A DNA stretch of 64,000 nt from a virus. The notes beneath the pieces are model-generated. The model was not told the DNA's origin, did not search any database, and was given only the letters and a program-made list of their open reading frames with translations. This document shows, piece by piece, positions 36,934 through 39,180 of the stretch. How positions within the stretch are numbered: position 1 is the first letter of the stretch; each line of letters opens with the position of its first letter. Where the stretch lies: positions 64,001-128,000 of IMG/VR virus record IMGVR_UViG_3300048113_001121; one strand, written 5' to 3'. The position numbers were made by a program, and so were the translations under genes.

Positions 36934-36964
36934 TTTGACAATTGAAATAACTTAACTATATTTG
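36934..36964 (+). promoter_or_regulatory. Bacteroidota sigma70 promoter of the tRNA array
   Basis: TTTG (36934-36937) - 19 nt - TATATTTG (36957-36964), matching the -33/-7 consensus. Confidence 0.8.
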
Positions 36965-36997
36965 TAGAGTACAAACAAGTACAAAACTATTTTAAAA

Positions 36998-37069
36998 ATG
37001 AATAAACGAAACACACATAATATAATATTAAGAAACTTATCAAGGATAAGAATCTTTAGTGTTATGTGA
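36998..37069 (+). CDS. Putative attenuator leader peptide MNKRNTHNIILRNLSRIRIFSVM
   Basis: ATG after an A-rich tract, TGA TAG double stop, placed between promoter and terminator. Confidence 0.55.
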   Translation: MNKRNTHNIILRNLSRIRIFSVM

Positions 37070-37121
37070 TAGTTCGGTAAAACATAATGTAAAAAATAGA
37101 CTTAAAGCTATGAAAAAGAAG

Positions 37122-37155
37122 AAGCCCGAACAGAGATGTTCGGGTTTTTTGTTTT
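37122..37155 (+). terminator. Strong intrinsic terminator upstream of the first tRNA
   Basis: AAGCCCGAACA-GAGA-TGTTCGGGTTT followed by TTTGTTTT. Confidence 0.85.
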
Positions 37156-37165
37156 ATATTAGCAG

Positions 37166-37178
37166 TGTTCTTTGACAT
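37166..37178 (+). promoter_or_regulatory. boxA-like element
   Basis: TGTTCTTTGACAT; near-copies at 11033-11045 and 38369-38381. Confidence 0.6.
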
Positions 37179-37215
37179 CAAGATTAAGTAACGACACAGT
37201 ATTCGGTAAAATACT

Positions 37216-37288
37216 GACCTCTTAGCTCAGCTGGTAGAGCATCACACTTTTAATGTGAGGGTCCAGGGTTCGAACCCCTGAGGGGTCA
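37216..37288 (+). tRNA. tRNA-Lys(UUU)
   Basis: Full cloverleaf, loop CT-TTT-AA, no encoded CCA. Confidence 0.93.
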
Positions 37289-37348
37289 CTATCGCCAATA
37301 CTAAATCGAGTTTTGCACCTCTACATAAAATATGGGTGTTTTCAACAT

Positions 37349-37422
37349 GGGGATGTAGCTCAGTTGGTTAGAGCAGGACTCTTATATGGTCAAGGTCGTA
37401 GGTTCAATTCCTACCGTCCCTA
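37349..37422 (+). tRNA. tRNA-Ile(UAU)
   Basis: Cloverleaf GGGGATG/CGTCCCT, loop CT-TAT-AT. Confidence 0.82.
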
Positions 37423-37498
37423 CAATTAAATTAATTTAATAAAATAGTTGTTACTTAATCATTTGTACCGTACATTTACAGTATTGAAAGATATAGAT

Positions 37499-37584
37499 GC
37501 CGAAGTGGTGGAATTGGTAGACACGAGGGACTTAAAATCCCTTGGACAGTAATGTCCGTGACGGTTCGAGCCCGTCCTTCGGTA
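37499..37584 (+). tRNA. tRNA-Leu(UAA)
   Basis: Class II cloverleaf, loop CT-TAA-AA, variable arm GGACA/TGTCC. Confidence 0.93.
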
Positions 37585-37587
37585 CAC

Positions 37588-37646
37588 AGATAGGGAGTTA
37601 TCCAATACGCGTTGGAACTAGATAACTTTAAAATAGAACCCTATCT
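37588..37646 (+). ncRNA. Structured spacer RNA 1
   Basis: AGATAGGG/CCCTATCT enclosing AGTTATC/GATAACT and CAA/TTG stems. Confidence 0.5.
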
Positions 37647-37671
37647 TTTACATGTACCCAACATACAATTT

Positions 37672-37760
37672 AAGAGAGGTAGTGAAGCTACAATGATATA
37701 GAAAAAGGTAAGGGTTAACCTCTATATCGTAGTAACCCCGAAAGACCCGAAACCTCTCTT
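37672..37760 (+). ncRNA. Structured spacer RNA 2
   Basis: AAGAGAGGT/ACCTCTCTT enclosing CTAC..GATATAGA/TCTATATCGTAG and AGGT/ACCT. Confidence 0.5.
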
Positions 37761-37766
37761 TTACAT

Positions 37767-37840
37767 GCACCCATAGCTCAGCTGGATAGAGCATCTGCCT
37801 TCTAAGCAGACGGTCTCAGGTTCGAATCCTGATGGGTGTA
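37767..37840 (+). tRNA. tRNA-Arg(UCU)
   Basis: Full cloverleaf, loop CT-TCT-AA. Confidence 0.93.
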
Positions 37841-37848
37841 CTAAATAC

Positions 37849-37964
37849 GGGGAGTTAGTCAAAGTGGTACGACGCTCCAACCTTAAGACAGAAAGCATCA
37901 TACTAGTTACTCGATGTGATTAAGTTGGTTAGTAGAGGTAGGGGTTCGAATCCCCTACTCCCCC
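37849..37964 (+). tRNA. tRNA-like RNA with ~35-nt insertion in the anticodon loop (possible intron-containing tRNA, UAA)
   Basis: Acceptor GGGGAGT/ACTCCCC, D-arm GTC/GAC with GG, perfect T-arm AGGGG-TTCGAAT-CCCCT, stem CCAAC/GTTGG around a 42-nt loop. Confidence 0.65.
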
Positions 37965-37967
37965 GCT

Positions 37968-38039
37968 CTTAGATAGGTTTAACAACCGAACAACGAGGCG
38001 TCAAATCTCACGCCTACAAGTCGAAAGACGGAGTCTAAG
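37968..38039 (+). ncRNA. Structured spacer RNA 3 (four-way junction)
   Basis: CTTAGA/TCTAAG closing GGTT/AACC, AGGCGT/ACGCCT and GTC-GAAA-GAC hairpins. Confidence 0.5.
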
Positions 38040-38050
38040 TGGAGTAATTA

Positions 38051-38288
38051 TACCGAATGGTGGAATTGGAAGACACGAGTCACTGTTAATGACTAATGTA
38101 TCACACATGATGAGAAATGGGGTAACATCCATAGTGAAAAGAAGGAGGATGAATTGCCCCTAGATTAATCATCTACTCAAGAATAGGTAAGAGTTTGTAG
38201 TACCTTAAAGATTTATTCCTAACCAATATTGTTTATACTCTATTGGGACATCCGTGACAGTTGTAGTTGGATAAAATAGACTGTTAAC
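38051..38288 (+). ncRNA. tRNA 5' half (Leu/Ser-type D-arm, Asn GUU anticodon arm) fused to a ~190-nt structured domain
   Basis: GGTGGAATTGGAAGACACG then AGTCA-CTGTTAA-TGACT; no canonical T-arm; stems GGGGTAA/TTGCCCC, CATCC/GGATG, CCAATA/TATTGG, CCGT.ACAGT/ACTGT..ACGG. Confidence 0.5.
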
Positions 38289-38362
38289 GGACTTTTAGCT
38301 CAGTTGGTTAGAGCACCGCACTCATAATGCGTAGGTCGATGGTTCGAGTCCATCAAGGTCCA
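38289..38362 (+). tRNA. tRNA with CAU anticodon, probably Ile2 (lysidine type) rather than Met
   Basis: Loop CT-CAT-AA; GGAC.TT/AAGGTCC-A acceptor resembles known bacterial tRNA-Ile2. Confidence 0.85.
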
Positions 38363-38407
38363 CTAGTGAGTTCTTTGACATAAAAATTAAATTAAAAAAT
38401 AGAAATT

Positions 38408-38743
38408 ATGGAAATAACATCATTTATTTTAGGTGTATGTACAGTCATTGTATTAGTAATGGTTGTGGGTACGTTTGTGAACTATATGACAACAAAGTCC
38501 TTAAAAGAGGAAATAAACCGACTGAATCGAGAAAACGAAAATCAGTATAACGAATCTGAAAAGATTAAAAAAGAACTAATAGATTATGTGGATAGTCTAC
38601 ATAATATTAGTGAAAATAACATGAACGAAGTCTACCGTCATATTGACAGTAGAGTAGATAAAACTGTAAATGGTATGAGCGAACACGTTGCAGAAATTTA
38701 TAGACAAATAGATAGTAACAAAAAATCCGTTGTTAACGGATAA
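38408..38743 (+). CDS. Single-TM coiled-coil protein flanked by a 15-bp inverted repeat
   Basis: ORF track; repeat arms at 38365-38379 and 38754-38768. Confidence 0.7.
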   Translation: MEITSFILGVCTVIVLVMVVGTFVNYMTTKSLKEEINRLNRENENQYNESEKIKKELIDYVDSLHNISENNMNEVYRHIDSRVDKTVNGMSEHVAEIYRQIDSNKKSVVNG

Positions 38744-38872
38744 TAAATAAAACGTTAAAGAACTCACTTTTTAACTATGCACGAAAAAACCATCATTAGG
38801 TAACTTTTTTACACTTAATGTTGGTTTTTTCATGCATTTACCATATATTTGTACTCTAATAAAAAAACACTT

Positions 38873-39088
38873 ATGGGTAATATACTTAGTAAAATTGCAG
38901 ACATGGAAGAAGATGGTACACTACCAAAATTTAACCCTAACTATTATGTTGACGTTTTAAACTTAGCCAGAACGAAAGGACTAAGATTAGAGGTTATGTA
39001 TACAGCTATGGATATTGTTAGAGAGCAACCTAATTTAACTAATGAGGTCGCCATTATTCAATCGGCTAAAAAATGGAATTTAGTATAA
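38873..39088 (+). CDS. Hypothetical protein
   Basis: TATATTTG at 38844; long hairpin 38777-38837 upstream. Confidence 0.65.
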   Translation: MGNILSKIADMEEDGTLPKFNPNYYVDVLNLARTKGLRLEVMYTAMDIVREQPNLTNEVAIIQSAKKWNLV

Positions 39089-39091
39089 AAA

Positions 39092-39165
39092 GCTTCCTTA
39101 GCTCAGTTGGCTAGAGCAGCTGATTTGTAATCAGCAGGTCGTGGGTTCGAGTCCCTCAGGAAGCT
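39092..39165 (+). tRNA. tRNA-Thr(UGU)
   Basis: Full cloverleaf, loop TT-TGT-AA. Confidence 0.93.
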
Positions 39166-39180
39166 CAAAATTTATTTATT

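What the first reader, a model, noticed from the sequence alone, without database searches (positions are those of the whole stretch)
36934..37215. Putative ribosome-coupled attenuator controlling the phage tRNA array through the codons those tRNAs read
Seen in order: a consensus -33/-7 promoter; a 23-codon ORF (36998-37069); a strong terminator (37122-37155); boxA; then tRNAs. Nine of the 22 post-start codons are exact cognates of intact array tRNAs (AAA, ACA, ATA x3, TTA x2, AGA x2), and four Asn codons match the GUU tRNA-half. Seven consecutive codons (AAT ATA ATA TTA AGA AAC TTA, 37019-37039) all match. Just after the stop, GTTCGG (37072-37077) can pair with CCGAAC (37126-37131) in the terminator 5' arm (6 bp, with nested ATAG/CTAT hairpin); TTATGT/ACATAA is a third alternative helix. 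Known: amino-acid operon attenuation works by stalling on hungry codons. Inference: completed translation masks GTTCGG and terminates, while stalling on depleted or nuclease-cleaved host tRNAs allows readthrough, so tRNAs are made on demand. I know of no described attenuator for a phage tRNA array. Caveat: these codons are common in AT-rich DNA and the competing helix is short.
Basis: partly seen in the sequence, partly recalled or inferred. Interest (0 to 1): 0.85.

Follow-up and report, generated by a model that had tools for sequence, protein, structure and literature searches.

The report
Candidate translation-gated leader before phage tRNAs
An uncultured phage of Flavobacteria-type bacteria places a strong promoter, a tiny readable gene, a transcription stop and a copy of the host's ribosomal-RNA anti-stop signal in front of its tRNA genes; this may let it make tRNAs when their codons are read slowly, but a second promoter after the stop could bypass that control.

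Summary
They are conserved in three diverged phage lineages.

- **What is there:** a consensus Bacteroidota -33/-7 promoter (P1), a 23-codon ORF, a strong intrinsic terminator, an rrn-type boxA and then six tRNAs.
- **For attenuation:**
  - The ATG is invariant and the frame stays open in all lineages, while the other two frames carry 1-4 stops.
  - GTTCGG and CCGAAC are invariant.
  - One lineage (L017) has extra tRNA-Ser and tRNA-Tyr genes. Its ORF has 15-18 of 22 codons cognate to its array (P about 2e-4).
- **Against:**
  - The window's own enrichment (9-11 of 22) fades once base composition is controlled (P 0.11-0.16).
  - The antiterminator is only 6 bp and shows no covariation.
  - The "GUU tRNA-half" is a non-functional remnant.
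  - An invariant TATATTA box sits between the terminator and boxA, where related phages have real promoters. The tRNAs may therefore have their own promoter.

I put translation-gated attenuation at about 0.45. No paper describing it for tRNA genes turned up.

This scan had already noted the same idea on other DNA, including homologous leaders (e1-5678298, e1-5678293, e1-5362947).

The parts
36934..36964 (+). P1, a host-type Bacteroidota promoter: -33 TTTG, a 19-nt spacer, then -7 TATATTTG. Inferred start near 36969.
   Evidence: Both boxes are invariant and the spacer sequence varies across three lineages. The -7 box spans -12 to -5 according to PMC9723704.
36998..37069 (+). 23-codon leader ORF (MNKRNTHNIILRNLSRIRIFSVM) with an A-rich start context.
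   Evidence: The ATG is invariant. Frame 0 is open in all lineages while the other frames carry 1-4 stops. The peptide is not conserved: changes are spread evenly over the three codon positions, and L018 has a 13-nt deletion that shifts the frame.
37014..37068 (+). Long hairpin inside the ORF: 37014-23 pairs with 37059-68, with inner helices 37030-33/37052-55 and 37036-41/37045-50.
   Evidence: It is predicted in all three lineages. The L018 deletion removes only the apex.
37061..37088 (+). Alternative hairpin H1: 37061-67 pairs with 37082-88. It presents the invariant AGTTCGGT in its 14-nt loop.
   Evidence: All cells are paired, with two one-sided changes (A-U to G-U and U-A to U-G).
37072..37077 (+). 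GTTCGG, the proposed 5' strand of the antiterminator. It pairs with CCGAAC at 37126-31.
   Evidence: It is invariant while the bases on both sides vary. Before the terminator's 3' arm exists, the pairing probability is 0.5-0.7.
37096..37111 (+). Small conserved hairpin ATAG...CTAT, with a largely conserved loop.
37119..37155 (+). Intrinsic terminator with a GC core (GCCCGAAC/GTTCGGGT) and a T-run. It is the first terminator downstream of both the upstream operon and P1.
   Evidence: 97.6% of cells are paired, with four one-sided changes.
37155..37162 (+). P2 candidate: the -7-like box TATATTAG, 4 nt before boxA, with no -33 TTG at the right spacing.
   Evidence: TTTTATATTA is invariant while the proximal U-tract varies. 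Relatives have TATATTT[GA] at the same spacing. In 29 of 42 boxA cassettes TAT[ACG]TTA lies upstream, and 28 of those have TTG 19-21 nt further up. ATATTAGC is not enriched upstream of this genome's genes.
37167..37178 (+). rrn-type boxA, GTTCTTTGACAT.
37179..37215 (+). Nearly invariant pre-tRNA leader.
37216..37289 (+). tRNA-Lys(UUU)
37349..37423 (+). tRNA-Ile(UAU)
37499..37585 (+). tRNA-Leu(UAA)
37767..37841 (+). tRNA-Arg(UCU)
38289..38363 (+). tRNA with a CAU anticodon (Met, or Ile2-like).
38370..38381 (+). Second boxA, between the CAU tRNA and the 111-aa gene.
   Evidence: It is conserved before this gene in about 70 phage loci.
39092..39166 (+). tRNA-Thr(UGU)

Best explanation
This is a composite leader of the phage tRNA operon.

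**Inferred sequence of events**
1. Host RNA polymerase starts at the consensus promoter P1, near 36969.
2. It transcribes a short ORF embedded in a hairpin and then meets a strong terminator at 37119-37155.
3. Polymerases that pass the terminator transcribe an rrn-type boxA at 37167-78. boxA probably recruits the host NusB/NusE antitermination machinery, which would carry them through the 2-kb untranslated tRNA array and into the 111-aa gene.

**Most likely control**
- Passage of the terminator is gated by translation of the ORF.
- A ribosome that reaches the stop codon at 37067-69 covers GTTCGG (37072-77), so the terminator folds.
- A ribosome held up on ATA, TTA, AGA, AAA or ACA codons leaves GTTCGG free to hold CCGAAC (37126-31). 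The flanking hairpin 37061-88 may help. Terminator folding is then delayed and tRNA transcription rises.
- A weak promoter relic (TATATTAG, 37155-62) may add a basal, ungated start at boxA.

**Shown versus inferred**
- Shown: the elements themselves, their conservation, the identity of boxA, and the codon statistics.
- Inferred: translation of the ORF, the switch, the direction of regulation, and any promoter activity.
For: - **P1 looks selected as a promoter.** Both boxes are invariant and the spacer sequence is free to vary in three lineages that are 79-83% identical over the leader.
- **The homology block begins about 15 nt upstream of P1's -33 box.** L017 and L018 have an extra upstream gene, so P1 travels with the array.
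- **The ORF is maintained.**
  - The ATG is invariant.
  - Frame 0 is open for 22-25 codons in all lineages, while the other frames have 1-4 stops.
  - Frame 0 also holds the most cognate codons: 10 vs 6 and 3 in the window, 15 vs 6 and 1 in L017, and 10 vs 7 and 3 in L018.
- **The ORF tracks the array in L017.**
  - Its array adds tRNA-Ser(UGA) and tRNA-Tyr(GUA).
  - Its ORF has 15 strict or 18 wobble cognates of 22. P is 2.5e-4 and 1.5e-4 against own-composition shuffles.
  - With the strict set, none of 657 small ORFs and none of 53,642 gene windows reach this level.
- **The codons ATA TTA AGA are invariant** and follow the order of the Ile, Leu and Arg tRNAs in the array.
- **AGTTCGGT is invariant between variable flanks** and is complementary to the terminator core.
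- **The folding model is compatible.** With the 3' arm not yet made, GTTCGG:CCGAAC is populated at 0.5-0.7 unless a ribosome sits at the stop codon.
- **The genome's other boxA unit has the same layout.** The one before GOLLD RNA also sits behind a host-type promoter.
- **No phage-type ATATTTAT promoter lies before tRNA-Lys**.
- **Flavobacteria use leader-peptide attenuation** (PMC9723704).
Against: - **The window's codon enrichment is weak.** It is not significant against shuffles of its own bases (P 0.11-0.16), and L018's is not either (0.19-0.35). The strong signal rests on one lineage.
- **The antiterminator is short.** It is 6 bp, and once the 3' arm exists the terminator is 100% populated in every ribosome state. 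It could only work kinetically.
- **No helix shows compensatory changes**.
- **The L018 frameshift moves the stop codon** to beyond GTTCGG.
- **Some conserved elements are not needed by this model.** These include hairpin 37096-111 with its loop.
- **TATATTA may be a separate promoter.** It is invariant at 37155-61, at the position where relatives have -7 boxes, so the tRNAs may start independently.
- **One mosaic metagenome contig lacks P1 and the ATG.** L232 keeps 37017-37289 at 99% identity but lacks P1 and the ATG. Its coverage is low, so it may be a chimera.
- **Other tRNA arrays in related phages have plain promoters** and no leader ORF.
Confidence: 0.45

Rival explanations
1. P1 to the terminator and the tRNA operon are two separate units. 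P1 to the terminator makes an autonomous early RNA of about 185 nt: a structured small RNA whose ORF is incidental, or a dispensable micropeptide. The terminator also closes the upstream operon and insulates what follows. The tRNA operon starts at its own promoter (TATATTAG, 37155-62), with boxA as the first transcribed bases.
For: - TTTTATATTA is invariant although the proximal U-tract of the terminator varies.
- L040-L043 and L096 have canonical TATATTT[GA] 4-5 nt before boxA in front of tRNA or tmRNA genes.
- A 22-nt stretch here matches L041's promoter-boxA junction at 17 positions (by eye on the output).
- Terminator-promoter-boxA cassettes recur in this phage group: 29 of 42 carry TAT[ACG]TTA, and 28 of those have TTG at 19-21 nt.
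- The RNA has a small-RNA-like shape, with hairpins whose loops are conserved.
- The 13-nt deletion in L018 keeps the hairpin but not the peptide.
- L232 keeps the terminator-to-tRNA part without P1.
Against: - P2 has no -33 TTG and differs from TAnnTTTG at a conserved T.
- ATATTAGC occurs upstream of genes in 0 of 11 cases in this genome.
- This reading does not explain the open frame, the frame-specific cognate codons or the L017 match.
- No trans target for the conserved loop was found in the phage genome.
Confidence: 0.3
2. The stop is constitutive and leaky, with no sensing. P1 is the array's promoter, and the terminator passes a fixed fraction of polymerases. This sets tRNA output and releases a by-product RNA. 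The ORF and the alternative helices have no regulatory role.
For: - The terminator is far more stable than any competing structure.
- The window's codon enrichment is compatible with its base composition.
- There is no covariation for the alternative helices.
Against: - AGTTCGGT, the ATG and the open frame are conserved without any need for them in this model.
- The L017 codon match is unexplained.
- A perfect promoter followed by a strong stop is an odd way to fix an expression level.
Confidence: 0.13
3. Antitermination depends on a factor, as in lambda PR'-6S RNA-tR' with Q. P1 transcripts stop after about 185 nt until a phage or host factor modifies the polymerase, or binds the leader hairpins, and lets it read into boxA and the tRNAs. 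This would give temporal control.
For: - The layout is the same as in lambda: a strong promoter, a short terminated RNA of about 185 nt, then the operon.
- Conserved hairpin loops could be binding sites.
Against: - No candidate factor or qut-like site was identified.
- boxA lies after the terminator, so it cannot help at this stop.
- This reading does not explain the ORF features.
Confidence: 0.07

Closest known systems
Leader-peptide (ribosome-mediated) transcription attenuators of amino-acid operons: trpL, hisL, thrL, the ilvGMEDA leader, and the Bacteroid-trp leader motif
   Same: It has a promoter, a short ORF with repeated 'test' codons, an intrinsic terminator before the operon, and an upstream segment that can pair with the terminator's 5' arm. 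The codons relate to what the operon supplies.
   Different: - The operon encodes tRNAs rather than biosynthetic enzymes, so the sensed quantity would be decoding capacity, not amino-acid supply.
- The antiterminator is only 6 bp.
- With no translation the model predicts readthrough, whereas trp predicts termination.
- A boxA follows the terminator.
- A possible second promoter lies after the terminator.
- There is no Rfam match.
rrn operon antitermination (boxA with NusB/NusE)
   Same: GTTCTTTGACAT fits the boxA found in 86 of 99 Bacteroidota rRNA leaders. It sits at the head of a long untranslated stable-RNA operon. It occurs twice, in the leader and after the tRNAs, as in rrn leader and spacer.
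   Different: - It lies in a phage, in front of tRNAs, a protein gene and (elsewhere in the genome) GOLLD RNA.
- No boxB or boxC was examined.
- Binding of Nus factors was not tested.
Lambda late control: PR', 6S RNA, tR' and Q
   Same: A strong constitutive promoter is followed by a short terminated transcript of about 190 nt, directly upstream of the operon to be switched on.
   Different: No Q-like factor or binding site is known here. Lambda's leader has no conserved ORF.
T-box riboswitches
   Same: They are leaders that couple tRNA status to a terminator/antiterminator choice.
   Different: There is no specifier loop or T-box sequence. Sensing here would act through ribosomes, not through direct tRNA binding.

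Membership tests
Ribosome-mediated leader-peptide attenuator | Short ORF with a usable start codon, located between the promoter and the terminator | tested here: met
   ORF 36998-37069 starts 29 nt after the inferred transcript start, in an A-rich context. The ATG is invariant in three lineages. Actual translation cannot be tested here.
Ribosome-mediated leader-peptide attenuator | Regulatory codons enriched beyond chance and related to the operon's product | tested here: inconclusive
   - Window: 9-11 of 22. P = 0.012-0.019 against gene usage, and 0.11-0.16 against own-composition shuffles.
- L017: 15-18 of 22, P about 2e-4.
- L018: not significant.
Ribosome-mediated leader-peptide attenuator | Intrinsic terminator between the leader ORF and the regulated genes | tested here: met
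   37119-37155, with a 14-pair stem and a T-run. It is conserved, with only one-sided changes.
Ribosome-mediated leader-peptide attenuator | Antiterminator helix that excludes the terminator and whose availability depends on ribosome position | tested here: inconclusive
   GTTCGG:CCGAAC is 6 bp and invariant, so covariation is uninformative. It is populated at 0.5-0.7 before the 3' arm exists and at 0 afterwards.
Ribosome-mediated leader-peptide attenuator | No independent promoter between the terminator and the regulated genes | tested here: inconclusive
   A conserved TATATTAG sits at 37155-62, where relatives have -7 boxes. It lacks a -33 element and is a poor match to this genome's promoter motifs.
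Ribosome-mediated leader-peptide attenuator | Readthrough responds to translation of the leader | not testable with these tools
   This needs reporters, Term-seq or ribosome profiling.
rrn-type boxA antitermination site | Match to the boxA consensus of the host phylum's rRNA leaders | tested here: met
   86 of 99 rRNA leaders carry G[ATC]TC[AT]T[TA][GA]A.. at a median of 135 nt before 16S, against 5% of shuffled leaders. Variants seen include GTTCTTTGAAA, GTTCATTGACA and GTTCTTTGACA.
rrn-type boxA antitermination site | Sense orientation in the leader of an untranslated stable-RNA operon | tested here: met
   - 39 nt before tRNA-Lys in the window.
- Before tRNA or tmRNA genes in relatives.
- About 28 nt after a host-type promoter before GOLLD RNA.
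rrn-type boxA antitermination site | Binds NusB/NusE and makes the polymerase resistant to termination | not testable with these tools
   This is a biochemical property.

The most novel reading that the evidence does not exclude
Phages regulate their own tRNA genes by a decoding-speed sensor. The sensor is a leader ORF written in the codons of the array's tRNAs, and it co-evolves with array membership, as L017's Ser and Tyr codons track its extra tRNAs. It gates a terminator, and an rrn-type boxA then protects the readthrough transcript. tRNA supply would therefore rise when host tRNAs are scarce or cleaved by defence nucleases.
Probability: 0.4. Interest if true: 0.85.

Novelty: new variant of a known kind. 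Interest (0 to 1): 0.62.

Why it matters
Phage tRNA genes are usually explained by codon-usage matching or by escape from host tRNA-cleaving defences. How their expression is controlled is hardly studied.

A leader that measures how fast the phage's own critical codons are decoded would be a feedback loop on translation capacity. It would use trp-operon logic for a new purpose. It would also give a direct handle for testing when and why phages need their tRNAs.

Separately from the attenuator question, this phage group uses the host's ribosomal-RNA boxA in front of tRNA, tmRNA and GOLLD RNA genes and one conserved protein gene. This points to hijacking of the host antitermination machinery for untranslated phage RNAs.

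Tried and rejected
- **Rfam:** no family covers the leader at E <= 1. The only hit there is a weak MicC match (29.5 bits, E 0.26), which I regard as spurious.
- **More lineages:** two further pattern scans found only the three known lineages plus close copies.
- **Covariation:** none is available because the key helices are invariant.
- **Trans targets of the AGTTCGGT loop in the phage genome:** nothing beyond chance. There are 3 sites for the 8-mer against 3.5 expected.
- **Repeats of the leader module elsewhere in the genome:** none.
- **Leader ORF plus terminator before other tRNA arrays in related loci:** not found. Those arrays have plain promoters, some with boxA, or group I intron-like inserts.
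- **Bacteroides phage DAC19 tRNA region:** no comparable layout seen by eye.
- **ORF 37059-37175 (38 aa, GTG start), which spans the terminator:** rejected as a gene, because indels in L017 and L018 break it.
- **Counting Asn codons as cognate:** rejected, because there is no functional GUU tRNA.
- **Phage-type ATATTTAT promoter as the array's promoter:** rejected, because none lies between 36900 and 39170.

Full report
**Context.**
- The window is bases 64001-128000 of a 198.8-kb IMG/VR phage record with 32% G+C.
- Neighbouring genes are phage-like. One carries a type IX secretion signal domain, which points to a Bacteroidota host. The closest cultured relatives by DNA are Flavobacterium phages.
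- All seven tRNA-model matches in the record (six tRNAs and one tRNA-like element) lie in one array at 37216-39166.

**The observation.**
  - P1 (TTTG, 19 nt, TATATTTG) at 36934-64;
  - the ORF at 36998-37069;
  - GTTCGG at 37072-77;
  - the small hairpin at 37096-111;
  - the terminator at 37119-55;
  - tRNA-Lys at 37216.
- Only 18 sites in the genome fit the full -33/-7 pattern.
- Most genes instead carry a phage-type ATATTTAT motif. Of its 81 copies, 43 lie within 60 nt upstream of a start codon. P1 is therefore one of the few host-type promoters and is probably early.

**boxA.**
- GTTCTTTGACAT occurs exactly twice in the genome, both times in the array: at 37167-78 and 38370-81.
- I fetched rRNA operons of 99 Bacteroidota. 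In 86 of them a motif of the form G[ATC]TC[AT]T[TA][GA]A lies a median of 135 nt before the 16S gene, against 5% of shuffled leaders. The phage motif is a member of that family.
- In related phages the same motif directly follows promoters of tRNA and tmRNA genes. It also precedes a conserved 111-aa gene in about 70 loci.
- In this genome a near copy follows a host-type promoter in front of a GOLLD RNA.
- The boxA call is therefore well supported. It suggests rrn-style protection of long untranslated phage transcripts.

**Conservation.**
- Homologous leaders exist in three lineages:
  - the window group (L001, L229, L233, L235);
  - L017, 83% identical;
  - L018 and L234, 79% identical.
- Invariant features:
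  - both P1 boxes;
  - AAAATG;
  - the block ATATTAAGAA;
  - TTATGT;
  - AGTTCGGT;
  - the small hairpin;
  - the terminator core;
  - TTTTATATTA;
  - boxA and the stretch up to the tRNA.
- The ORF body is the most variable part. Differences between the window and L017 fall evenly on codon positions 1, 2 and 3, so the peptide itself is not under selection.
- L018 has a 13-nt deletion at the apex of the hairpin that the ORF forms. The frame shifts but stays open, ending at a TAA beyond GTTCGG.
- Homology with L017 and L018 begins about 15 nt upstream of P1's -33 box, after a gene the window lacks.

**Codons.**
- The five strict cognate codons make up 19.8% of phage gene codons.
- Nine of 22 gives P = 0.019, and 10 of 22 with ATG counted gives P = 0.012. 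The ORF ranks first among 78 intergenic small ORFs.
- Against shuffles of the ORF's own bases the P value is only 0.11-0.16.
- The 'GUU tRNA-half' is a remnant anticodon arm, so the Asn codons should not be counted.
- The informative case is L017:
  - Its array also has tRNA-Ser(UGA) and tRNA-Tyr(GUA).
  - Its ORF has TAC x2, TAT, TCA x2 and TCG, which gives 15 strict or 18 wobble cognates of 22.
  - P is about 2e-4 against shuffles. With the strict set, none of 657 small ORFs and none of 53,642 gene windows reach this level.
- In all three lineages frame 0 has no stops and the most cognate codons, while the other frames have 1-4 stops.
- This is one strong lineage and two weak ones, all related to each other. 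I treat it as suggestive rather than decisive.

**Structures.**
- The ORF region folds into a long hairpin (37014-23 with 37059-68). Its 3' arm can instead pair with 37082-88 and present AGTTCGGT in a loop.
- Before the terminator's 3' arm is made, GTTCGG:CCGAAC is populated at 0.5-0.7, unless a ribosome at the stop codon covers it. Once the 3' arm exists the terminator is 100% populated in every state.
- The switch could therefore only be kinetic, as in classical attenuators, and it would rest on a 6-bp helix.
- No pair shows a compensatory change.

**The second promoter.**
- Between the T-run and boxA lies TATATTAG (37155-62).
- TTTTATATTA is invariant, although the proximal U-tract changes in L017.
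- In L040-L043 and L096 a canonical TATATTT[GA] lies 4-5 nt before boxA.
- In 29 of 42 boxA cassettes in this phage group TAT[ACG]TTA lies 14-29 nt before boxA. In 28 of those, TTG lies 19-21 nt further upstream, often inside a terminator stem.
- Terminator-promoter-boxA is therefore a recurring cassette, and the window's version looks like one.
- Here, however, there is no -33 element. The box also departs from TAnnTTTG and from the genome's own promoter motifs.
- A mosaic contig (L232) keeps 37017-37289 at 99% identity without P1 or the ATG, but its coverage is low.

**Verdict.**
- The anatomy is real, conserved and attenuator-like. The ORF looks maintained as an open frame whose codons track the array in at least one lineage.
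- A conserved candidate promoter after the terminator, a weak antiterminator and composition-dependent statistics in the window keep the case open.
- My estimates are:
  - translation-gated attenuation 0.45;
  - separate short RNA plus own promoter 0.30;
  - ungated leaky stop 0.13;
  - factor-dependent antitermination 0.07.
- A full-text search for attenuators or leader peptides with phage tRNAs returned no paper on such control.
- Other agents of this scan reported the same idea on homologous and unrelated phage DNA. I treat those notes as leads, not as evidence.

Noticed in passing
L238:2002-2407 (minus strand; G000:C1:150501-150906, outside the window): There is a GOLLD RNA here (Rfam RF02032, 293 bits). 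It is preceded by a host-type -33/-7 promoter (G000 151362-151393) and a boxA-like CGTTCTTTGAAAA (151322-151333). boxA may therefore serve long non-coding phage RNAs in general.
   Followed up: partly
window 37849-37964: This 116-nt tRNA-like element has good acceptor, D and T arms but a 57-nt insert in the anticodon region (tRNA model, 39 bits). ARAGORN with introns reads it as Ile(UAU) with a 35-nt intron at an unusual position. It is also present in the L017 phage.
   Followed up: partly
window 38040-38100: This is a remnant of the 5' half of a tRNA, with an intact-looking anticodon arm (loop CTGTTAA, so GUU) but no T arm.
   Followed up: partly
window 37586-37766: The spacer between tRNA-Leu and tRNA-Arg holds two hairpin-forming units flanked by the repeat CTTTTACATG[TC]ACCCA. 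The close relative L001 lacks the second unit, about 105 nt long, so it looks like an insertion or duplication of a structured spacer element.
   Followed up: no
window 38370-38743 and about 70 loci (L029-L104): A conserved 111-aa membrane-type protein (N-terminus MEITSFILG, weak Rz-like spanin match) is preceded by boxA 20-30 nt before its ATG in nearly every phage found. A boxA in front of a protein gene is unusual.
   Followed up: partly
whole genome G000, e.g. window 2306, 27952, 40232: The abundant phage-type promoter-like motif ATATTTAT(A/T) lies 5-40 nt before start codons. Of the 81 copies, 43 lie within 60 nt upstream of a gene. This agrees with another first-reader note (e1-5877658).
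   Followed up: yes
L033:5400-5725, L036:4960-5210, L041:3440-3600: In related phages, large structured inserts sit next to or inside a tRNA-Leu(UAA)-like 3' half. They resemble a group I intron, and in L041 a homing-endonuclease-like ORF lies upstream. L040 carries a phage tmRNA behind a promoter and boxA.
   Followed up: no
L232 (ENA marine metagenome contig, 4531 nt): In this mosaic contig only window 37017-37289 (mid-ORF to the end of tRNA-Lys) is 99% identical, and both flanks are unrelated. It is either recent recombination of the terminator-boxA-tRNA module or an assembly chimera (coverage 1.7).
   Followed up: partly
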